From Candidatus Magasanikiibacteriota bacterium (GTDB lineage: Bacteria; Patescibacteriota; Patescibacteriia; Magasanikbacterales; UBA922): DNA of 64,000 nucleotides. The stretch's first letter is position 1. Every line of letters begins with the position of its first letter. The stretch spans positions 1,052 to 65,051 of the forward strand of contig JBAYUH010000002.1 in NCBI GenBank assembly GCA_041675185.1, in the 5' to 3' direction. The translations under genes and the position numbers were made by a program. The notes beneath the pieces were generated by a model, which worked only from the letters and a program-made list of their open reading frames with translations, did not search any database and was not told where the DNA came from. Of the stretch, positions 1-8,081 are shown piece after piece.

Positions 1-601
1 TCCCGAAATAACCGAAAAAATACAAGATGCACCACCAAGAGTAAAAACCGCCAAAAAATACAAAGAGGACAATTTACTAGTCTTTATTAGAAAGTCTGGA
101 AATCTTTATTCCAGAAGTATTAATAATGAAAATAACAAAATTATTGAACATGCAAATTTTGCTGACGTTTTGGAAATGATCAAATGTAAATACGAAGAAA
201 AAAGACAAGATTTATCCGAAACATTTTGGGAGCAATATGTGCAAATTCGTGATCACAATGACAAAGCTAATATACCAACCGGTGAAAATAGTATCGAAAG
301 ACAATCTCTAAATGTTTTACAAGGTTTTGATAGTAATCCACCAGCTAATTTCAATCGGTATCGAAAATTTTTATCTACTCTTTTGGAAGATGCGGCAGAT
401 TATCAAACTCTATCTAAATATACAATGCGTAGAATTGCCAACCTAGATTTTTCTACTAAAAAAGATAAAGAAATAGAAGCAACTAAAAAAGAACTAGATA
501 ATATGATGTTTGAACTTGGTGGAGATAATTATTTAGATGAAATAAAGAAAAAAGGTGATCCACAAAAAGAAGTAATTATTGCGATTGAAAACATAAAATA
601 A
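1..601 (+). CDS. 3' part of a hypothetical protein. The ORF is open to the window's left edge and its stop abuts the start of the downstream methyltransferase
   Basis: Frame 2 is open from position 2 with no stop until 599-601 (TAA). The next gene's ATG is at 603, which implies translational coupling. No recognisable motif. Confidence 0.45.
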   Translation, partial: PEITEKIQDAPPRVKTAKKYKEDNLLVFIRKSGNLYSRSINNENNKIIEHANFADVLEMIKCKYEEKRQDLSETFWEQYVQIRDHNDKANIPTGENSIERQSLNVLQGFDSNPPANFNRYRKFLSTLLEDAADYQTLSKYTMRRIANLDFSTKKDKEIEATKKELDNMMFELGGDNYLDEIKKKGDPQKEVIIAIENIK

Positions 602-602
602 T

Positions 603-3600
603 ATGCCAAAACAGATATTGCAAGACATTATAAACGATTTTTCCTTAGAAAAATTTAATTCTTTTTTTCGTGAAAAATCTGATAAATATAGAGATTTAGA
701 TGAAAGACTATCCAAATATGACAAGGATATTTTTTCTAATTCTACCCGTCTAGGTGTCATAGATTTTGGCGGTCGTACCAAAGATGTGGCTGTAATAGCT
801 GTACAAGTAGCAAAAGATTTAACTGAAAGAACTAGTAAAAAAGCCCAATATGATTTTGCCAAAAATTTATTAAAGCAAGAAGATAAATATGAAGCCGGCA
901 TATTTATTTTTTATGACACAACTGGTAATTTTCGTTTTTCGTTAATTTATCCACAATACCAAGGTAAAAATAGAGTTTGGAATAATTTTAAAAGATTTAC
1001 TCATTTTGTAAGCAAAAAATTGACCAATAAAACTTTTATTACACAGATTGGTAATGGTAATTTTGAAAACATAAATACATTGAAAGAATCATTTAGTGTA
1101 GAAAAAGTTACTAAGGAATTTTTTGCAAACTATAAAAAACTATTTGATAATTTAACAGCACATTTAAACAGTGATGCCTATTTCGACAATTTCGCTAGAA
1201 AAAATGGAATAGATTTAAATATTTTTGCCAAGAAAATTTTGGGTCAAATTGTATTTATTTATTTTTTACAAAAAAGAGGTTGGTTGGGTGCTGAAAAAAA
1301 TAAGCCAGTCGATACTGGTACTATTACCTTTTTAAGAGATCTTTATAATAAATGTGAATCTGATAACAAAAATTATTTTAATGATGTTTTAGAATATTTA
1401 TTCTATGATGCTCTAAACAAAAGACCAGAAAAAATAATTGGTTTTTATAGAGAATATTTTGATTGTCAAATTCCATTTTTAAATGGTGGTTTGTTTGAAC
1501 CGATAAATAATTATAATTGGAAACAAGAATTTTTAAATATTCCAAATAAAATTTTTTCTAACAAGCAAGAAAATGGAATTTTGGATATTTTTGACCAGTA
1601 CAACTTTACTATAGATGAAAATGACAACAGTGATCAAGAAGTGTCTGTTGACCCTGAGATGCTTGGAAAAGTATTTGAAAATTTATTACCAGAAAATATT
1701 CGTAAAGGTCAAGGCGCTTTTTATACACCACGAGAAATAGTTCATTACATGTGTAAAGAAAGTCTTATAAACTATCTTACTAATGAACTTGGTGCAAATG
1801 AAAAGACTGTACGTGATTTTTATGAATGGGATACCTCACCCTTAGACCATTCTGATTTAGAAAATGATGAAAAGGCACAGAAAAAAGTGTTTACATATTG
1901 GGTTTCTGAATTTGATGAATTAATGCCAAAAATGAAGACAGCGTTGCAAAATATAAAGATTGTGGACCCAGCTTGTGGTTCCGGTGCTTTTCTTATTGGC
2001 ATGTTGCAAGAAATTTTAATGTTAAGACATAAAATAAGCATGATATTAGATGAAAAATTTTCAGGCTATGAAGTAAAAAAAGACACAATTCAGAATTGTA
2101 TTTATGGCGTGGATATTGATCCTGGCGCAGTAGATATTGCTAAACTAAGATTATGGCTATCTATTGTGGTAGAACATGATATATCTGAAATAGAACCGCT
2201 ACCAAATTTAGATTATAAAATAATGCAAGGTAATAGTTTGTTAGAAAATTTGATTATTGGTGATAGTGTTATTTCTCTAAATCTTGATGGTAACAAAAAA
2301 ATAGATGGCAGGACAAAGGAGATGAAAAATCTTTTTGACACAAACGATCAAAGTAGAATGACTTTATTTACAGATGAAAAAGCAGTTGCATCTTCCGTAG
2401 ATCAATTAGAAAAACTTCATTCAGTTTTTTTTACTGAGAGCGATCCAGATAAAAAGAAAATTTTAAAAACAAAAATAGACAGCAAAGAAATTGAATTGGT
2501 AGAAAATGCTTGTAAAAATGAAATCACCATATTAGACAATAGAATAAAAAAAGATTTTGAAGATAAAAAGAAATTGCAAAAATATACTGAACAAATTTTG
2601 AATATTAAAAAAGTTTTAAATCAGTTAAAGAAAGATGGGGTTAGACCTTTTTTTCCATGGCATTTACATTTTAGCGATGTTTTCAAAGAAAAAGGTGGGT
2701 TTGATGTGGTAATTGGAAATCCACCATATGGATTTAGGGATGTTTTAACGAATGAAGAGAAAATATATTTTAGAAAAATTGAAAATATCGAATTTAGTAG
2801 TGGTGATGTCGCAGAGCTTTTTTGCAAAAAATCCTTTGATAATTTAGTTGTTAAAAGTGGTATTCTATCATTTATAATCCCCAAAAAATGTACCTATGGT
2901 GATTCATGGGATGGTTGGCGTGTTAATTATTTCCAAAAATATGATCTTCACTTTATTTTAGATTCTGGCAAAGCATTCGATCGAGTTTTACTAGAACAAA
3001 CCGCCTTTGGTCTTGCCAAAAGAAACCAAAGTGGCGATATTCAACTGTGTTTTTTAGATAACAAAATGGACAAAATACATTTATTTGCAAGATCATTAAA
3101 AGAAAAAATATTTAAATCAAACAATACTATACAAATTTATCTTGAATATTTTCCTCGAAGTATATTTGAAAAAATAGTCGCTAAATCAACACCTGAAACT
3201 TTAGTTACTGGAGATTTGGGATTAGGAATTGGTACAGAATTTTTTTCAGATGAAAAAACTGAATATAAATTATTAAAAGGAATAGATATTAGCAGGTGGC
3301 AAGTTCGAAGCCATCGCTTCCTAAAAAATAAAGAGAAACTAAATTGGAATAATGCTAAAAGATTTTTGAGAGCGAAAGTGTTGTGCCAAAGACTGATAGC
3401 TCACATCGAAAATCCAATCCCCCACATAAAAGTGACTGCTTGCTTCGATTCTGAAGGTATAATCATTACTAACACACTAACTGCTTTCAAACTTGATGCT
3501 TCAATAAATGAAAAATTTTGGCTAGGTTATTTAAACTCAAGTTTAGTGAACTGGTTTATATATAATTTTATTTATGGACGCGCAATAAGAGGGATGGATT

Positions 3601-3827
3601 TTTATAGTTTTTATATCGAACAAATTCCTATACCCAAAATTTCTAAAGACCAACAAACGAGTTTTATTGAAATTGTCGATAAAATTCTCACTATTACCTC
3701 AGCCACTAATTATGATCCTAAGAATACACCAATAAAACAAAAAGAATTGGAAAAACAAATTGATGAGCTAGTTTATAAACTCTACAACTTAACAGAAGAA
3801 GAAATAAAAACAATTGAAACGTGTTAA
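603..3827 (+). CDS. Eco57I/MmeI-family (Type IIG-like) restriction-modification enzyme / gamma-class N6-adenine DNA methyltransferase, 1074 aa
   Basis: Carries GQGAFYTPREIV, AdoMet motif I VDPACGSGAFLIGML, and motif IV FDVVIGNPPYG, in the order typical of gamma-class MTases. There is a ~330-aa N-terminal region and a ~370-aa C-terminal region that is a putative target-recognition domain. A coiled-coil insert lies between motifs I and IV. Confidence 0.8.
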   Translation: MPKQILQDIINDFSLEKFNSFFREKSDKYRDLDERLSKYDKDIFSNSTRLGVIDFGGRTKDVAVIAVQVAKDLTERTSKKAQYDFAKNLLKQEDKYEAGIFIFYDTTGNFRFSLIYPQYQGKNRVWNNFKRFTHFVSKKLTNKTFITQIGNGNFENINTLKESFSVEKVTKEFFANYKKLFDNLTAHLNSDAYFDNFARKNGIDLNIFAKKILGQIVFIYFLQKRGWLGAEKNKPVDTGTITFLRDLYNKCESDNKNYFNDVLEYLFYDALNKRPEKIIGFYREYFDCQIPFLNGGLFEPINNYNWKQEFLNIPNKIFSNKQENGILDIFDQYNFTIDENDNSDQEVSVDPEMLGKVFENLLPENIRKGQGAFYTPREIVHYMCKESLINYLTNELGANEKTVRDFYEWDTSPLDHSDLENDEKAQKKVFTYWVSEFDELMPKMKTALQNIKIVDPACGSGAFLIGMLQEILMLRHKISMILDEKFSGYEVKKDTIQNCIYGVDIDPGAVDIAKLRLWLSIVVEHDISEIEPLPNLDYKIMQGNSLLENLIIGDSVISLNLDGNKKIDGRTKEMKNLFDTNDQSRMTLFTDEKAVASSVDQLEKLHSVFFTESDPDKKKILKTKIDSKEIELVENACKNEITILDNRIKKDFEDKKKLQKYTEQILNIKKVLNQLKKDGVRPFFPWHLHFSDVFKEKGGFDVVIGNPPYGFRDVLTNEEKIYFRKIENIEFSSGDVAELFCKKSFDNLVVKSGILSFIIPKKCTYGDSWDGWRVNYFQKYDLHFILDSGKAFDRVLLEQTAFGLAKRNQSGDIQLCFLDNKMDKIHLFARSLKEKIFKSNNTIQIYLEYFPRSIFEKIVAKSTPETLVTGDLGLGIGTEFFSDEKTEYKLLKGIDISRWQVRSHRFLKNKEKLNWNNAKRFLRAKVLCQRLIAHIENPIPHIKVTACFDSEGIIITNTLTAFKLDASINEKFWLGYLNSSLVNWFIYNFIYGRAIRGMDFYSFYIEQIPIPKISKDQQTSFIEIVDKILTITSATNYDPKNTPIKQKELEKQIDELVYKLYNLTEEEIKTIETC

Positions 3828-3834
3828 TAATTTT

Positions 3835-4104
3835 ATGAGTAATTTTTCACCAAAACTTGAAGACGCAACAGACGAGAAATTGATGTACATGATTAACGAA
3901 TTAGATTTTCGGGTTGTTCCACTTGCTTCTGATGAGTTGACGAGGCGCCATTTGGGAAAATTAAGAGAAAATATTGAAAAATTTAACGAACAATCATCAA
4001 AACAGACAAATAAAATGATTCGATTGACCTGGGTAATTGTTTTGTTAACTGTTGTAATGGTTTTTGGCTTAGGTCTACAAATATATTTAGCAATTTATGA
4101 TTAA
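3835..4104 (+). CDS. Small hypothetical protein with a C-terminal transmembrane helix
   Basis: The ORF track start at 3814 is TTG, which sits inside the MTase gene's terminal codons, so the ATG at 3835 is more plausible. The hydrophobic C-terminus reads WVIVLLTVVMVFGLGLQIYLAIY. Confidence 0.4.
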   Translation: MSNFSPKLEDATDEKLMYMINELDFRVVPLASDELTRRHLGKLRENIEKFNEQSSKQTNKMIRLTWVIVLLTVVMVFGLGLQIYLAIYD

Positions 4105-4115
4105 CAAAATATACT

Positions 4116-4400
4116 ATGCCTAAAAAAGAAGATAATAAAACAATTGGTATTAGAATAAGATTTTGGACTAATGATTTACCCGGTAAAGTTGGGAAAGATC
4201 ACAAACAAACTCCATGCTGGAGTTGTGGTGTGGTTATTATAGAAGCTAATAGAACAAAAGGTATTTCATCAGATAGTGAGGTATTCCATTATGTTGATGA
4301 CATTCCAAGAGCTGTTAAAGAAGTAATGAAAAGAGCGAAAATTGCTGTAGTGGAAAATGTGGCTAGTACTGACAGAGCAAAAAAGAGGATAGGAAAATAA
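4116..4400 (+). CDS. Hypothetical 94-aa protein
   Basis: Clean ORF 11 nt after the previous gene. Contains a CWSCG pair and no known motif. Confidence 0.4.
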   Translation: MPKKEDNKTIGIRIRFWTNDLPGKVGKDHKQTPCWSCGVVIIEANRTKGISSDSEVFHYVDDIPRAVKEVMKRAKIAVVENVASTDRAKKRIGK

Positions 4401-4467
4401 TAAATACCTCAGTGGATGTCATTAGTGTTTATGAGTTTTTAAAAAAATATAATTTTATTTTTATATT

Positions 4468-5298
4468 ATGCAAAAACAATTTTTAGTAGGTAGATACTAT
4501 TTCGACACGCTTTTTCGGGATGAAGCTAATAAGTCATTTATTTCTGATTTAACAAAGAAGCCTACTTTTGAAGAAGGTAATATTGGATATGCTTTAGCAA
4601 ATACATCTTTCGAGAAGGTGGGTGAAAGTAAGGAAAGCTTTTTGAGAGGAACATTCGCTAAATTTAAAATTAAGGATTATTACAAAAAATATCTCAAAAA
4701 AGAAAATGGCTTTCAAGAATCCATAACGGATAACAAAGTTGAATCTCAAATTGAATTTTTTCTCCACCATCCGTCCCATCTTATTTTTATTGAAAAATCT
4801 TCACAAATAAGAGAAAATATTTTTAAAAATAAATTCATTAAAATTTACGAAAAAAATACCTCAGTCACCAAGCCAAATATGGGTCTTGATTTTTTATTTG
4901 ATGAAAAAGATGTATATGAAGAAATAAAAAGTTGGGATAGAATAGTTAAAGCTAAATTTAATGATTTACGACCATCTAACCCGCGAATGGATCCACACTT
5001 TGAAAAAATTGAGGAATTATTAAAGGAAACAAAAAGTGATCGTTCTAAATTAGAATTTAAAATTGATGATCCAGATAGCACTAATTCCCTCGATTCAGAA
5101 AGTGTACTTATTAAACAAGCTCTCGCTTTGTCATCATATGGATATGGGAATGCAAATTTTGATGGGTTTAAAGGTAAAAATACAACTAATATCAAAACAA
5201 AAAAGTTTGTTAAATCAGTAAAACTTGATTTTGATTCAGAAACTCCCTTTAGTGTTGTAATAGATTTTATTGAAAAAGACGAAAAAGGAGAAATGTGA
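4468..5298 (+). CDS. Hypothetical 276-aa protein
   Basis: Long ORF in AT-rich context, same strand and operon-like spacing. No recognisable motif. Confidence 0.5.
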   Translation: MQKQFLVGRYYFDTLFRDEANKSFISDLTKKPTFEEGNIGYALANTSFEKVGESKESFLRGTFAKFKIKDYYKKYLKKENGFQESITDNKVESQIEFFLHHPSHLIFIEKSSQIRENIFKNKFIKIYEKNTSVTKPNMGLDFLFDEKDVYEEIKSWDRIVKAKFNDLRPSNPRMDPHFEKIEELLKETKSDRSKLEFKIDDPDSTNSLDSESVLIKQALALSSYGYGNANFDGFKGKNTTNIKTKKFVKSVKLDFDSETPFSVVIDFIEKDEKGEM

Positions 5299-5311
5299 TA
5301 TAATACTAGAT

Positions 5312-5842
5312 ATGAGTACTAATCTTGAAAAAAAATTTGGGTTTTTCTCAAAGATGTTCCAATTTGGTATTGGTAATATTTTTATTTCCCTTGATTTTTT
5401 TGTTGCTTTTTTAGTACTAATACTTTTATTTATTGATAATCACTTTAATTTAAAAATTTTTATTTCGATTGCAGAGGAAAGAAATGCCTATGTTCAGGTT
5501 ATTTTAAGTGCTTCTTCGATTCTTTTTGCACTCATTACCACTGCATTATCTATTATTTTATCTTTCTCAACTAGTAACTTTATCAAATTTTTAAAGAAAA
5601 AAGACATGCTAGATAGCGTACTTTTCCCTTTTTGGTTAGGAAATGCAATTTATCTTTTTACTATAATACTTTCCATTGTATATCTTCTACTAGAGCCGGC
5701 GACATGGATAAAAATAATACCATTTTTATTCATGTTTATAATTTTTTTGTTTATATATGCTATTGGTATTACTTTTTCCTTATTACGAACCATAATTCGT
5801 ATTGGTGAATGGATAGCTCAAAATGATGAAGATTTGGCGTAA
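5312..5842 (+). CDS. Hypothetical polytopic membrane protein (~176 aa)
   Basis: ATG at 5312 (the track start at 5270 is TTG and overlaps the previous gene). At least four hydrophobic helices. Confidence 0.45.
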   Translation: MSTNLEKKFGFFSKMFQFGIGNIFISLDFFVAFLVLILLFIDNHFNLKIFISIAEERNAYVQVILSASSILFALITTALSIILSFSTSNFIKFLKKKDMLDSVLFPFWLGNAIYLFTIILSIVYLLLEPATWIKIIPFLFMFIIFLFIYAIGITFSLLRTIIRIGEWIAQNDEDLA

Positions 5843-5934
5843 CGTCTTATTCAGTTCGAACAAAACGATATGGCTACAGGGGACATTCTCCCCTTTAATT
5901 CCCCTCTGTCCCCTTCCGCTATATTGACGAACGC

Positions 5935-5944
5935 CCCCCCCCCC
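5935..5944. repeat. C10 homopolymer tract inside a C-rich non-coding spacer
   Basis: The sequence gaacgccccccccccttcccc is seen directly and is unusual in this AT-rich genome. Confidence 0.9.
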
Positions 5945-6200
5945 TTCCCCTCTTTAATAAAATGGTAAAAACAAAAGACGAAAAAATAATTTACATCTGA
6001 TAACAGCCGATATATGATTACGCTCCCCACTAACGTGCGGTCGCTCCATCCATATCCCGTATTCTCGGGACATCATATATCGGCGTACGTTAGCTGAAAT
6101 AAAATTTTTACACTTTTTGTTTTTTGTGATTGAGTGATTGGCGAGGGCGAGGCTTTTATCTCTTTTATTCCTATCTTCCCTACCAAAAAAGCACTTTCCT

Positions 6201-6230
6201 TTGCGCGTATCTTGCGCGTATCTTGCGCGA
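6201..6230 (+). repeat. 11-bp direct repeat ttgcgcgtatc x2.7 overlapping the -35 of the fic promoter (candidate operator)
   Basis: ttgcgcgtatc ttgcgcgtatc ttgcgcga, seen directly. Confidence 0.8.
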
Positions 6231-6251
6231 ACCGCTGTTTTGTGATATAAT
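6223..6251 (+). promoter_or_regulatory. Sigma70-like promoter for fic: -35 ttgcgc, 17-bp spacer, extended -10 tgtgatataat
   Basis: Consensus-like hexamers with a TG extension 28 nt upstream of the ATG at 6279. Confidence 0.55.
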
Positions 6252-6278
6252 ACTGGTGTAACTTAAAAAACATATAAT

Positions 6279-7334
6279 ATGTTTAATCCTAAATACAAGC
6301 ACACTAATAAAATTTTACTCGACCTCACTGCTATCGCCGAGGCCAAGGGCATTATTGACCGTGCCAAAATTTTACCACAACAAGAAATAAAACTACGTCG
6401 ACAAGCCATTATCCGTATGACCCACCACTCTACCGAGATTGAAGGCAATAAATTAAATATGGGGCAGGTGGAAGCACTTTATGCTAAGAAAAAAGTAGAT
6501 GCGCCAGACAGGGATATTTACGAAGTAAAAAATTATCTCAACGCTTTAAAATTTATTGAAAAAGTTGTAATTGAACATAAACCAATAACTAAAAAAATAA
6601 TTTTAAAAATACATAAATTAGTCGCTGATAAAACTTTGGCACCGCAATATTGTGGGCATTTCCGCCCAGGACCAATTTATGTGGTTCGTCGACGTTTGGG
6701 CATGCCACAAGAAACTCTATACACCGGACCAGAAGCCAAGCGCGTGCCACAGCTTATAACCGAATTTATCGCATGGCTTAAAGAAAGCGAAAAACAAGAA
6801 ATAAGTCCAGTACTTGTAGCTGCTATTGCTCACATGGAAATCGCCGCTATTCACCCTTTTAACGACGGCAACGGTCGTACAGCTCGCGCTTTAGCCACTT
6901 TGATTCTTTACCAGCGTGGATACGATTTTCGTCGATTATTTGCATTGGAAGATTTTTATAATACTGACCGACCATCATATTACAAGGCCATCAACTTGGG
7001 TAAAACTTATGATGAACGACGTACAGACATTACATCGTGGTTAGAATATTTCGTAAAAGGATTTAAGAAAGAAATTGATGAGGTAAAAAACAAAGTCTTG
7101 CCATTATCTACTCGCAATGTTGACGGGAAAATTAAATCACAAATTTATCTCACTCCAGAACAATTAAAAATTATTGACTTCTTAGATCAAGTTGGAAGAA
7201 TTGTTGTAAAAGATGTCGAGGACATTTTATCTTGTCCACGCCGATCTGCACAGTTACAATTACAAAAATTAAAGAAAATTAAAATGATTAAAGCGATGGG
7301 TAAAGGAAAAACCACCGCCTACATTGCCAACTAA
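6279..7334 (+). CDS. fic: Fic-family protein (AMPylase/adenylyltransferase), class II autoinhibited, with C-terminal winged-helix domain (SoFic-like)
   Basis: Canonical Fic motif HPFNDGNGRTARAL (HxFx[DE]GNGRxxR). The N-terminal inhibitory motif STEIEGN matches [ST]xxxE[GN]. Length is 351 aa, and GC is noticeably higher than in neighbouring genes. Confidence 0.85.
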   Translation: MFNPKYKHTNKILLDLTAIAEAKGIIDRAKILPQQEIKLRRQAIIRMTHHSTEIEGNKLNMGQVEALYAKKKVDAPDRDIYEVKNYLNALKFIEKVVIEHKPITKKIILKIHKLVADKTLAPQYCGHFRPGPIYVVRRRLGMPQETLYTGPEAKRVPQLITEFIAWLKESEKQEISPVLVAAIAHMEIAAIHPFNDGNGRTARALATLILYQRGYDFRRLFALEDFYNTDRPSYYKAINLGKTYDERRTDITSWLEYFVKGFKKEIDEVKNKVLPLSTRNVDGKIKSQIYLTPEQLKIIDFLDQVGRIVVKDVEDILSCPRRSAQLQLQKLKKIKMIKAMGKGKTTAYIAN

Positions 7335-7353
7335 TAAAGCAATACAGCTACAT

Positions 7354-7818
7354 ATGAACTACAAACACACTCAAATTGGTTACCTGATGCTGGTTGTTAC
7401 GCTGGCCGTGCTGGTGATTTTCGTAAGATCTCATATCATGTCCGCCTCCGAGGTCCCTTCGGTTGATTCAGGCACAAATTTTGCAGTTACTTCCATAATG
7501 ACATTAATTCTATTTATTCTTACTTCCTTTGGGTCGCTTCAAGTAATTATTGACGAAAAATATTTACGAATCAAATTTGGCTATGGTATTTATCATAAAA
7601 AGTTTTCACTTGATGATATAATGTCTGCCAAAACCGTAAAGAATCATTGGTATTATGGATGGGGAATAAGAAGATGGTTGTGGCCAAAGATGTGGATTTA
7701 CAATGTTTCTGGTTTTGATGCGGTAGAAATAAAACTGAAAAATGGTAAAACGTACAGGATAGGCACCGATGAACCAAAAAAATTAGAACAAACAATTATT
7801 CATTCAATTAAATTATGA
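7354..7818 (+). CDS. Hypothetical membrane protein (two TM helices plus a soluble C-terminal domain)
   Basis: ATG at 7354 (the track start at 7324 is TTG overlapping the fic stop). Hydrophobic segments. Confidence 0.4.
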   Translation: MNYKHTQIGYLMLVVTLAVLVIFVRSHIMSASEVPSVDSGTNFAVTSIMTLILFILTSFGSLQVIIDEKYLRIKFGYGIYHKKFSLDDIMSAKTVKNHWYYGWGIRRWLWPKMWIYNVSGFDAVEIKLKNGKTYRIGTDEPKKLEQTIIHSIKL

Positions 7819-8081
7819 AAATTTTTATCGCTTCATTCATCACTATTTTTTTGGCAGAACTTGGTGACAAAACACAAATTGCCACATTATTATTTGCAGC
7901 AAACAAAGATCATTCCAAGCTAATAATCTTCCTTGGTGCAGCTTCAGCATTAGTCTTGACCAGTGCGATTGGTGTGCTGCTTGGAAGTACTTTATCTAAC
8001 TTTATAGATGAAAAAACACTAAAAATTATTGGCGGTGTAGGATTTCTTATTGTAGGTGTCTGGACAATTCTTTCGAAATAA
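7815..8081 (+). CDS. UPF0016/GDT1(TMEM165)-family half-size cation transporter subunit (88 aa)
   Basis: Signature E-x-G-D-K-T ([11 protein letters not shown]) plus three TM helices. Confidence 0.6.

What the first reader, a model, noticed from the sequence alone, without database searches (positions are those of the whole stretch)
1..5842. Eco57I/MmeI-family Type IIG-like methyltransferase operon embedded among uncharacterised genes: candidate defense locus
A partial upstream ORF ends at 601 with a TAA that abuts the ATG at 603 of a 1074-aa gamma-class N6-adenine MTase (FYTPREIV, DPACGSGAFL, NPPYG). Four small genes of unknown function follow head-to-tail with gaps of 11-70 nt or slight overlaps. 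There is no PglZ, BrxL, helicase or Type I hsdR/hsdS, so it is not BREX, DISARM or a Type I system. Defense genes cluster into islands, and uncharacterised genes co-operonic with an RM enzyme are prime candidates for novel accessory or defense functions.
Basis: partly seen in the sequence, partly recalled or inferred. Interest (0 to 1): 0.7.

Follow-up and report, generated by a model that had tools for sequence, protein, structure and literature searches.

The report
Helicase-methylase restriction plus Rex-like defence island
This stretch of a small uncultured bacterium's genome is a cluster of anti-virus genes made of mostly known kinds (a helicase-plus-methylase restriction system, a lambda-Rex-like suicide pair and a Fic enzyme), with one small unstudied protein that keeps turning up at the tail of restriction operons.

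Summary
The partial upstream ORF is the C-terminus of an SNF2 helicase (DrmD/BrxH-like). This helicase is the regular partner of this methylase family, adjacent in 67 of 80 related genome loci. Full-length partners carry an N-terminal PLD-type nuclease domain, and the methylase's own N-terminal domain has no conserved nuclease residues. The pair is therefore a two-subunit, ATP-dependent restriction-like system, not a single-chain Type IIG enzyme.

None of the four small genes travels with that pair (0 of 80 loci).
- Two of them, a 276-aa DUF4747 protein and a 4-TM protein, form a separate co-conserved module. Its predicted fold matches lambda RexA, so it is a RexAB/CarolAnn-like abortive-infection pair.
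- The 94-aa protein belongs to a conserved, basic, unannotated family. It sits as a single-gene cassette at the 3' end of unrelated restriction or defence operons in groundwater metagenomes.
- The 89-aa TM-anchored ORF has no detected homologues outside this strain.

A SoFic-like Fic gene follows.

Verdict: a real defence island in a Candidatus Magasanikbacteria genome, built mostly of known kinds. The 94-aa family is the only new lead. Interest is moderate to low.

The parts
1..601 (+). 3' end (last 199 codons) of an SNF2-family helicase gene, cut by the window and contig start. It is the putative translocase/nuclease (R-like) subunit.
   Evidence: L001 extends it to 551 aa: Helicase_C 2.5e-20, PADLOC DrmD 3e-36, BrxHI, HmaA. 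P0001 is annotated 'C-terminal helicase domain-containing protein, partial [Candidatus Magasanikbacteria]'. Complete homologues of the same subtype (L039, L084, L090, L092) are about 1,075-1,190 aa, with Walker A near aa 280 preceded by a PLD-like domain.
603..3827 (+). 1074-aa gamma-class N6-adenine DNA methyltransferase with a fused C-terminal TaqI_C-type specificity domain (M+S-like subunit). Sub-features: NTD aa 1-160 (nt 603-1082); motif X FYTPREIV (nt 1719-1742); motif I DPACGSGAF (nt 1965-1991); motif IV NPPY (nt 2718-2729); TRD aa 889-1010 (nt 3267-3632).
   Evidence: Pfam and PADLOC hits. The family has at least 8000 members. Invariant catalytic columns are present, and aa 1-160 has no invariant D/E/K. 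An SNF2 helicase is adjacent in 67 of 80 loci. The NTD co-varies with the helicase subtype, and the TRD is shuffled independently.
3835..4104 (+). 89-aa ORF (96 aa from TTG 3814) with one C-terminal transmembrane segment. It has no detected homologues outside this strain and its function is unknown.
   Evidence: It was called as a gene on two other contigs that carry the identical methylase, L001 and L002. One hydrophobic segment spans aa 67-85. There are no family hits and no tblastn match at E <= 0.01 among about 170 fetched loci, including the closest relative L093.
4116..4400 (+). 94-aa basic protein, member of a conserved unannotated small-protein family found at the 3' end of diverse RM or defence operons.
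4468..5298 (+). 276-aa DUF4747 protein: the RexA-like cytoplasmic component of a Rex/CarolAnn-type two-gene abortive-infection module.
5312..5842 (+). 176-aa membrane protein with four hydrophobic segments: the RexB-like partner of the DUF4747 protein.
   Evidence: Four TM-like segments, as in lambda RexB and in its homologues. It is co-conserved at 40-43% identity directly downstream of the DUF4747 gene in L005-L011, with an 8-nt overlap there.
6279..7334 (+). 351-aa Fic/DOC-family protein (SoFic-like) with a C-terminal winged-helix-like region. It is a neighbouring defence-associated gene, separated by a 436-nt gap.
   Evidence: Pfam Fic 9.6e-18; PADLOC SoFic 4.6e-52; PHROG 5978 6.5e-51. The HPFNDGNGRTAR active-site motif and the STEIEGN inhibitory motif can be read in the translation.

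Best explanation
Window 1-7334 is a chromosomal defence island of a Candidatus Magasanikbacteria (CPR) genome. It is made of independent modules placed head to tail.

**Module 1 (1-3827): helicase + methylase.** This is a two-subunit, ATP-dependent restriction-modification-like system.
- The 1074-aa protein reads an asymmetric site through its TaqI_C-type domain and methylates adenine to mark self. This is inferred from the MmeI/Eco57I family.
- Its N-terminal domain has lost the nuclease role. It most likely docks the SNF2 helicase. This is inferred from co-variation.
- On unmodified DNA the helicase would translocate and cut with its N-terminal PLD nuclease domain. That domain is seen in complete homologues but lies beyond the contig end here.

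**Module 2 (4468-5842): a RexA-like DNA-binding sensor and a 4-TM RexB-like partner.** It is a second-line abortive-infection pair, presumed to depolarise the membrane when a phage replication or recombination intermediate is sensed. The mechanism is inferred from lambda Rex and from the Sbash and CarolAnn systems.

**Between them:** an 89-aa TM-anchored ORF with no detected homologues, and a 94-aa basic protein. The 94-aa protein belongs to a conserved single-gene cassette found repeatedly at the tail of unrelated RM or defence operons. My best guess is a small nucleic-acid-binding regulator or accessory factor of such operons. This is inference only.

**Module 3 (6279-7334):** a SoFic-like Fic gene.
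For: **Helicase identity and pairing**
- Helicase identity.
- The helicase-methylase pairing is seen in L004, where the genes overlap by 4 nt. It is seen in 67 of 80 genome loci, and no other gene family is shared by more than 9 loci.

**Nuclease on the partner, not on the methylase**
- The partner's N-terminal domain matches PLDc_2 at 7.9e-11 and the NgoFVII PLD domain at 6e-6.
- That domain is homologous across both helicase subtypes. The motif HxK...ITGSSN is conserved in 59 sequences.
- The full-length partner aligns end to end with PADLOC 'HKD+Snf2'.
- The methylase NTD has no invariant D/E/K.

**Domain coupling and shuffling**
- NTD similarity tracks helicase similarity (Spearman 0.55-0.57, P about 1e-6, 66 loci). 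The other methylase regions do not.
- The TRD is swapped between systems.

**Literature on this architecture**
- PMC2731913 describes MmeI homologues that lack PD-ExK and are flanked by a helicase.
- PMC9881135 describes a Type II RM CDS with an upstream PLD-SNF CDS.

**Rex-like module**
- Annotation and co-conservation.
- Structure.
- 4-TM partner.
- Gene order and sizes match rexA (279 aa)-rexB (144 aa).
- Published DUF4747 + 4-TM defence systems: PMC6426606, PMC6426596 and PMC7542560. RM-adjacent DUF4747/CarolAnn operons: PMC13373217.

**p94:**

**Fic:**
Against: - The PLD domain and everything upstream of the helicase are missing here, because the contig ends inside the gene. A third partner upstream, such as a YprA-like helicase as in ARMADA type I, cannot be excluded.
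- No activity has been shown for this helicase-methylase family. The related B. subtilis DnmA/YeeA-YeeB-YeeC showed no restriction in transformation assays (PMC7261158).
- One close helicase homologue (P0058, L003) stands without a methylase.
- The DUF4747-RexA link is structural only. hhalign against RexA gives 0.5% probability, and a profile search of PDB sequences finds nothing.
- The tool's Pfam copy does not report PF15931 for any family member, so that label rests on precomputed annotation.
- No homologue was found in phage collections.
- The p94 loci come largely from a few groundwater projects and are not independent samples.
Confidence: 0.7

Rival explanations
1. The helicase-methylase pair is the visible end of a larger DISARM class 1 or ARMADA type I system. 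Its YprA-like helicase/nuclease (DrmA/ArmC with DUF1998) would lie upstream, beyond the contig end.
For: The helicase's best PADLOC match is DrmD, and the methylase matches DrmMI at 3.8e-28. ARMADA type I is usually ordered YprA, then helicase, then methylase (10.1101/2025.09.15.676423). The sequence upstream of the helicase is unavailable.
Against: - In 80 related loci no third family recurs in more than 9 loci.
- The eleven loci with the same helicase subtype have unrelated, mostly small neighbours upstream and downstream.
- The partner helicases carry their own PLD nuclease domain.
- The methylase matches REase_MTase_IIG far better (4.3e-113) than DrmMI or PglX. NCBIfam BREX PglX scores are far below cut-off.
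Confidence: 0.1
2. The methylase is a non-restricting, epigenetic or regulatory methyltransferase, like B. subtilis DnmA/YeeA, and the helicase has another role. On this reading the locus is not an active RM system.
For: DnmA, a helicase-flanked MmeI homologue without a nuclease motif, showed no restriction of incoming plasmid (PMC7261158). YeeA and MslORFHP showed no endonuclease activity alone (PMC2731913).
Against: - PLD catalytic-type residues are conserved in the partner helicases.
- Gene coupling is tight, with a 1-nt gap here and 1-4-nt overlaps elsewhere.
- TRD swapping is typical of specificity diversification.
- The pair sits among other defence genes.
- In ARMADA II the homologous helicase and methylase are both required for phage defence.
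Confidence: 0.15
3. The 276-aa protein is an RdgC-like recombination or replication-associated DNA-binding protein with a housekeeping role, and the membrane protein next to it is unrelated to defence.
Against: - The gene is always followed by the same 4-TM gene, usually overlapping it.
- It has few homologues and sits in variable, RM-rich contexts rather than conserved housekeeping synteny.
- DUF4747 + 4-TM pairs are experimentally shown defence systems.
Confidence: 0.07
4. p94 is not functionally linked to RM systems. It is a selfish or hitch-hiking small gene, or an independent one-gene defence or toxin-antitoxin-type element, that merely accumulates in defence islands.
For: Both flanks vary while p94 stays 80-92% identical. 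Some upstream neighbours are housekeeping genes such as ribosomal S9, S16 and YqeY. None of the 80 genome loci with the helicase-methylase pair has it.
Against: It is on the same strand as the upstream gene in 53 of 58 loci, with a median gap of 24 nt. It follows methylase or other RM-type genes far more often than chance would suggest: 25 of 69 upstream ORFs are N6 methylases.
Confidence: 0.35

Closest known systems
Helicase-flanked MmeI/Eco57I homologues without a PD-ExK domain (Morgan et al. 2009, PMC2731913), and the 'Type II RM CDS + PLD-SNF helicase CDS' context (Milman et al. 2023, PMC9881135)
   Same: A gamma-class methylase with a fused TRD and no nuclease motif in its N-terminal domain. 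An SNF2/DEAD-type helicase gene lies immediately adjacent, and the helicase carries a PLD (HKD) domain in complete homologues. This is the family the window's pair belongs to.
   Different: The published class is noted but not biochemically characterised. The YeeA/YeeB/YeeC variant has a third, GIY-YIG-like gene, which is absent here. The PLD part of this strain's helicase is not in the available sequence.
Type ISP restriction enzymes (LlaGI, LlaBIII) and Type I RM (own knowledge)
   Same: The domain set is a nuclease, an SF2 translocase, a gamma-class adenine methylase and a TRD. The expected logic is methylation-marked self and ATP-driven translocation to cleavage.
   Different: The system here is split into two polypeptides. 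The nuclease is PLD-type, not Mrr or PD-(D/E)XK. The helicase is SNF2-type. There is no separate HsdS. Nothing has been tested biochemically.
DISARM class 1 (DrmD + DrmMI) and ARMADA (ArmA + ArmB)
   Same: A homologous SNF2 helicase + PglX/Eco57I-like adenine methylase gene pair.
   Different: Those systems need a YprA-like helicase with DUF1998 (DrmA/DrmB, ArmC), and usually DrmC or ArmD as well. None is present downstream here or conserved in related loci. The helicase of this family brings its own PLD domain.
Lambda RexAB and the actinophage systems Sbash gp30/31, CarolAnn gp44/43 and Butters gp30/31
   Same: A two-gene module: a cytoplasmic protein of about 280 aa with a RexA/RdgC-like fold, followed by a small 4-TM protein. 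The gene order is the same, and the DUF4747 label is shared with the actinophage proteins.
   Different: - There is no detectable sequence similarity to lambda RexA or RexB.
- The module is chromosomal, in a CPR bacterium, next to RM genes rather than a prophage immunity region.
- The actinophage RexA-like proteins are longer (337-372 aa).
- Function is untested.
SoFic (PADLOC/NCBIfam protein adenylyltransferase Fic)
   Same: A full-length match to the PADLOC SoFic profile (4.6e-52), with an intact Fic motif and inhibitory motif.
   Different: The NCBIfam SoFic score (68.5) is far below its equivalog cut-off (550), so this is a relative and not an orthologue.

Membership tests
Type IIG restriction-modification enzyme (MmeI/Eco57I type, single polypeptide) | Gamma-class N6-adenine methyltransferase motifs (X, I, IV) with a fused target-recognition domain | tested here: met
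   FYTPREIV, DPACGSGAF and NPPY are invariant in 20 homologues. Eco57I, MmeI_Mtase and TaqI_C hit in Pfam. PADLOC REase_MTase_IIG scores 4.3e-113.
Type IIG restriction-modification enzyme (MmeI/Eco57I type, single polypeptide) | An endonuclease domain (PD-ExK or similar) in the same polypeptide, N-terminal to the methylase | tested here: not met
   Residues 1-160 have no invariant or near-invariant D, E or K. The conserved positions are F21, G51, A98, R111, S113, R131 and T144. No nuclease family hit was found. No structure prediction of this domain was run.
PLD-SNF2 helicase + Eco57I-like methylase two-gene RM-like cassette | SNF2 helicase gene directly adjacent to the methylase, on the same strand | tested here: met
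   Window 1-601 and 603-3827 are separated by 1 nt. The helicase domains are shown. The pairing holds in 67 of 80 loci.
PLD-SNF2 helicase + Eco57I-like methylase two-gene RM-like cassette | N-terminal PLD (HKD) nuclease domain on the helicase | not testable with these tools
   The source contig and L001 end inside the helicase gene. The domain is present in complete homologues of the same subtype and carries the HxK...ITGSSN motif.
DISARM class 1 / ARMADA | YprA-like helicase with DUF1998 (DrmA+DrmB or ArmC) in the same operon | tested here: inconclusive
   It is absent downstream: the genes at 3835-7334 are small proteins and Fic. It is not conserved in 80 related loci. The sequence upstream of the helicase is unavailable.
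BREX | PglZ, BrxC and BrxL partners, and PglX at equivalog score | tested here: not met
   NCBIfam PglX models score 35-63 bits against cut-offs of 400-900. No such partner genes lie downstream.
RexAB / CarolAnn-type (DUF4747 + 4-TM) abortive-infection pair | Cytoplasmic component with the DUF4747 / RexA-like fold | tested here: met
RexAB / CarolAnn-type (DUF4747 + 4-TM) abortive-infection pair | Adjacent, co-conserved small membrane protein with four transmembrane segments, downstream of the sensor gene | tested here: met
   Four hydrophobic segments in p176, in its homologues and in RexB. The partner is co-conserved in all 7 fetched loci.
RexAB / CarolAnn-type (DUF4747 + 4-TM) abortive-infection pair | Phage exclusion with loss of membrane potential | not testable with these tools
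   This needs an experiment. It has been shown only for lambda, Sbash, CarolAnn and Butters.
CapK/CapS regulators placed between RM and DUF4747 operons | GHKL-type kinase plus STAS-wHTH repressor (184 aa) | tested here: not met
   The genes in that position here are 89 aa (TM-anchored) and 94 aa, with no kinase, STAS or HTH hits. CapS architecture is taken from PMC13373217.

The most novel reading that the evidence does not exclude
Probability: 0.3. Interest if true: 0.6.

Novelty: new member of a known kind. Interest (0 to 1): 0.38.

Why it matters
**For annotation.** 'Type IIG' calls made from Eco57I/MmeI motifs alone can be wrong. This very large family (at least 8000 database members) works, if at all, with a separate PLD-SNF2 partner. 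Its N-terminal domain looks like a partner-docking module that is exchanged together with the helicase, while the specificity domain is exchanged separately. The class was flagged in 2009 and I found no biochemical characterisation of it in the papers I read.

**For CPR biology.** The locus shows that a genome-reduced episymbiont lineage carries layered defence: an RM-like system, a Rex-like abortive-infection pair and Fic. Rex-like DUF4747 + 4-TM pairs therefore occur outside prophage immunity regions.

**The p94 family.** This is a cheap, testable lead: a small, strongly conserved, basic protein that is repeatedly attached to unrelated restriction operons.

Tried and rejected
- **Sequence link from the 276-aa family to lambda RexA.** hhalign gave 0.5% probability, and a profile search of PDB sequences found nothing relevant. 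Only fold comparison worked.
- **Pfam scans for DUF4747.** Three scans, at E up to 0.1 and up to 10, gave no DUF4747 for any member. Lambda RexA hits PF15969 in the same library. PF15931 therefore seems absent from the tool's Pfam copy, and the label rests on precomputed annotation.
- **Phage origin of the Rex-like pair.** tblastn against 50,697 phage records found no match, and IMG/VR gave no confirmed hit.
- **PADLOC, NCBIfam and PHROGs for the four small proteins.** Nothing was found.
- **Helicase without a nuclease.** I first read P0054 (901 aa) and P0058 (911 aa) as showing that the helicase has no nuclease domain. I rejected this after complete ORFs in genome loci showed Walker A at about aa 280, preceded by a PLD-like domain. 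P0054 is probably a short gene call. P0058 (911 aa) lacks the domain and has no adjacent methylase.
- **A third conserved gene around the pair.** Apart from the methylase and helicase clusters, the largest are a serine recombinase (9 loci) and an SLFN/AlbA_2-HATPase_c_4-HTH protein (7 loci).
- **Invertible TRD or shufflon repeats in the window.** Only AT-rich chance repeats were found.
- **RNA elements.** No Rfam family lies in 1-8000. The promoter scan is not above shuffled background.
- **p94 as CapS, or p89/p94 as CapK/CapS.** Rejected on size and domains.
- **The 1250-aa, 10-repeat hit of p94 (P0283).** It is a eukaryotic saposin-repeat protein and a spurious match.
- **The first metagenome scan with the 30-sequence p94 alignment.** It failed for lack of a conserved stretch and was repeated with 6 sequences.

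Full report
**Observation**

- An ORF open at the window start ends with TAA at 599-601, and ATG follows at 603.
- A 1074-aa ORF (603-3827) carries FYTPREIV, DPACGSGAF and NPPY.
- Four same-strand ORFs follow. Gene callers on two other contigs that carry the identical methylase start them at 3835, 4116, 4468 and 5312.
- Pfam confirms Eco57I, MmeI_Mtase, N6_Mtase and a C-terminal TaqI_C specificity domain.
- The source is a 65,582-nt contig of a Candidatus Magasanikbacteria MAG.
- G+C is 28-30% over 1-6000, against 28-40% (mostly above 30%) elsewhere in the window.

**The upstream ORF is a helicase**

An identical contig (L001) adds 1,056 nt upstream and then ends too. The 551-aa fragment has Helicase_C (2.5e-20). 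It matches PADLOC DrmD (3e-36), BrxHI, HmaA and PLD_Helicase.

**The helicase-methylase pair is a unit**

- In L004 the two genes overlap by 4 nt, and the methylase is 34% identical.
- A scan of one genome per species returned 80 loci with relatives of the methylase. In 67 an SNF2 helicase homologue is adjacent, almost always immediately upstream on the same strand. Most of the rest are contigs too short to show it.
- No other gene family is shared by more than 9 loci.
- None of the 80 loci has a homologue of any of the four small proteins or of the Fic protein.

**Where the nuclease is**

- The methylase family has at least 8000 members. In a 20-sequence alignment, residues 1-160 have no invariant or near-invariant D, E or K, while all catalytic methylase columns are invariant. 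The methylase therefore lacks the PD-ExK module that defines MmeI-type Type IIG enzymes.
- Complete partner helicases are about 1,060-1,130 aa, with the Walker A motif near residue 280.
- The region before Walker A matches PLDc_2 (7.9e-11) and the NgoFVII PLD domain.
- That region is homologous across both helicase subtypes, including the subtype found in the window.
- It keeps an HxK...ITGSSN...EFNVE signature in 59 sequences.
- The full-length protein aligns end to end with PADLOC 'HKD+Snf2'.
- The window's own helicase is cut before this region, so its PLD domain is inferred and not seen.

**Modularity inside the methylase**

- Compared with relatives, the N-terminal domain is 73% identical in L093, whose helicase tail is 72% identical.
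- It is only 22-25% identical in proteins whose specificity domain is 74-80% identical.
- Across 66 loci, NTD similarity correlates with helicase similarity (Spearman 0.55-0.57, P about 1e-6). The helical, catalytic and TRD parts do not correlate (rho -0.09 to -0.27).
- This fits the 2009 proposal that the nuclease-less N-terminal domain contacts the helicase (PMC2731913).
- Caveat: the two helicase subtypes are two clades, so the data points are not independent.

**What is already known about this pair**

[quoted passage not shown] - B. subtilis DnmA/YeeA, a relative with a helicase and a third gene, showed no restriction.
- The homologous helicase + methylase pair is part of DISARM class 1 and ARMADA, where both genes are needed for defence alongside a YprA-like helicase.
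- No YprA-like gene lies downstream here or recurs in related loci. The upstream side cannot be checked.

**The DUF4747 + 4-TM pair**

- The 276-aa protein has only seven detectable relatives, all labelled PF15931.
- In every locus fetched, it is followed by a 171-176-aa protein that is 40-43% identical to the window's 176-aa protein, overlapping by 8 nt there.
- The neighbours differ between loci: a Type III Mod/Res pair, an N6_N4 methylase cluster, or no RM at all.
- Neither the 89-aa nor the 94-aa protein is present in those loci.
- The membrane protein and its homologues have four hydrophobic segments, as RexB does.
- An AlphaFold model (pLDDT 77) finds just two PDB chains at E <= 1e-3 out of 350,542: RdgC and lambda RexA.
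- Published work ties DUF4747 + 4-TM pairs to Rex-like phage exclusion in Sbash, CarolAnn and Butters. It also notes DUF4747/CarolAnn operons downstream of RM operons.
- Sequence-level similarity to RexA is absent. The tool's own Pfam copy reports no PF15931 hit. Both are stated as caveats.

**The two remaining small genes**

The 89-aa ORF has one C-terminal TM segment. It has no homologue in any fetched locus, not even in the closest relative L093, which has a 210-aa gene in that position.

The 94-aa protein is different.
- An exhaustive search finds 85 representatives, mostly 75-125 aa. The core is KDNKTIG-RFFTNDLP-CW-G-EANK-KGI-FN-EDI-AIK.
- In 80 metagenome loci, the gene is preceded on the same strand in 53 of 58 cases, with a median gap of 24 nt.
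- Proteins from loci with unrelated flanks are 80-92% identical, and nucleotide similarity stops within about 20 nt of the ORF ends. The gene therefore moves, or is retained, as a single-gene cassette.
- The family is strongly basic, with a median net charge of +7.
- Caveats: many loci come from a few groundwater projects. After single-linkage grouping at 90% identity, the informative groups are few. The enrichment is suggestive and not yet statistically established.

**Fic**

Fic (6279-7334) matches PADLOC SoFic (4.6e-52). It keeps the HPFxDGNGR motif and an inhibitory S/TxxxEG motif. Its NCBIfam SoFic score is far below the cut-off. It is separated from the Rex-like pair by 436 nt, in which I found no RNA family.

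**Conclusion**

The region is a defence island made of independent modules:
- a PLD-SNF2 + methylase RM-like cassette, a noted but uncharacterised class;
- a Rex/CarolAnn-like pair, a known kind;
- a SoFic-like gene;
- an ORF with no detected homologues;
- one small protein family that deserves a follow-up.

The specific reading, a Type IIG enzyme with four novel accessory genes, does not.

Noticed in passing
window 4116-4400; loci L093-L172: The 94-aa protein family is 80-92% identical between loci whose flanks share no nucleotide similarity. The similarity ends within about 20 nt of the ORF. It looks like a portable single-gene cassette at the tail of different RM or defence operons.
   Followed up: partly
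window 603-1082 (methylase aa 1-160) versus window 1-601 and L001:2-1657: The methylase N-terminal domain co-varies with the helicase subtype, while the TRD (aa ~800-1010) is exchanged independently. The TRD is 74-80% identical in P0131, P0132 and P0134, whose NTD is only 22-25% identical.
   Followed up: yes
window 1; L001 position 1; P0001: The source contig and an independent assembly (ERZ27247358) both break inside the helicase gene at almost the same codon (549 vs 551 aa). L013 and L093 also start inside their helicase genes. This may reflect a repeat or strain-variable segment in the 5' half of the gene.
   Followed up: no
L023:8565-9905, L030:850-2172, L037:3817-5169 and others: In 7 related loci, a gene of about 445 aa (SLFN/AlbA_2 + HATPase_c_4 + HTH) is associated with the pair. 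It is inserted between the helicase and the methylase in several of them, including L023 and L037.
   Followed up: partly
L057:10820-11524 and 8 other loci: Serine recombinase (resolvase) genes lie near the methylase in 9 of 80 loci. This would fit the phase-variable TRD inversions reported for Eco57I-type methylases. No inverted TRD repeats were seen in the window itself.
   Followed up: partly
L003:10001-12736: A close homologue of the helicase (P0058, 911 aa, without the N-terminal PLD region) sits after an AddA/AddB-like pair and has no methylase next to it. The helicase core therefore also exists outside the RM-like cassette.
   Followed up: no
L119:5998-7556, L112, L100: Fic-family genes lie next to or near p94 homologues in three metagenome loci (27-30% identical to the window's Fic). 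In L119 the Fic gene is directly downstream of p94, with no Rex-like pair in between.
   Followed up: no
L131, L133, L138, L146, L147 (upstream of p94 homologues): A recurring trio precedes p94 in several loci: a 76-aa protein, a 209-aa protein with no family hit, and a 647-aa HATPase_c_3 protein. It may be another uncharacterised defence-type operon.
   Followed up: no
window 1-6000 versus the rest: G+C is 28-30% in the island against 28-40% (mostly above 30%) elsewhere. The next genes (GDT1, MscL, ZnuABC, Fur) are ordinary chromosomal genes, which suggests a horizontally acquired island in a chromosomal setting.
   Followed up: partly
P0088 (891 aa): One database protein combines Helicase_C with MmeI_Mtase Pfam hits. 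It may be a helicase-methylase fusion, or a read-through gene call across the 1-4-nt junction.
   Followed up: no
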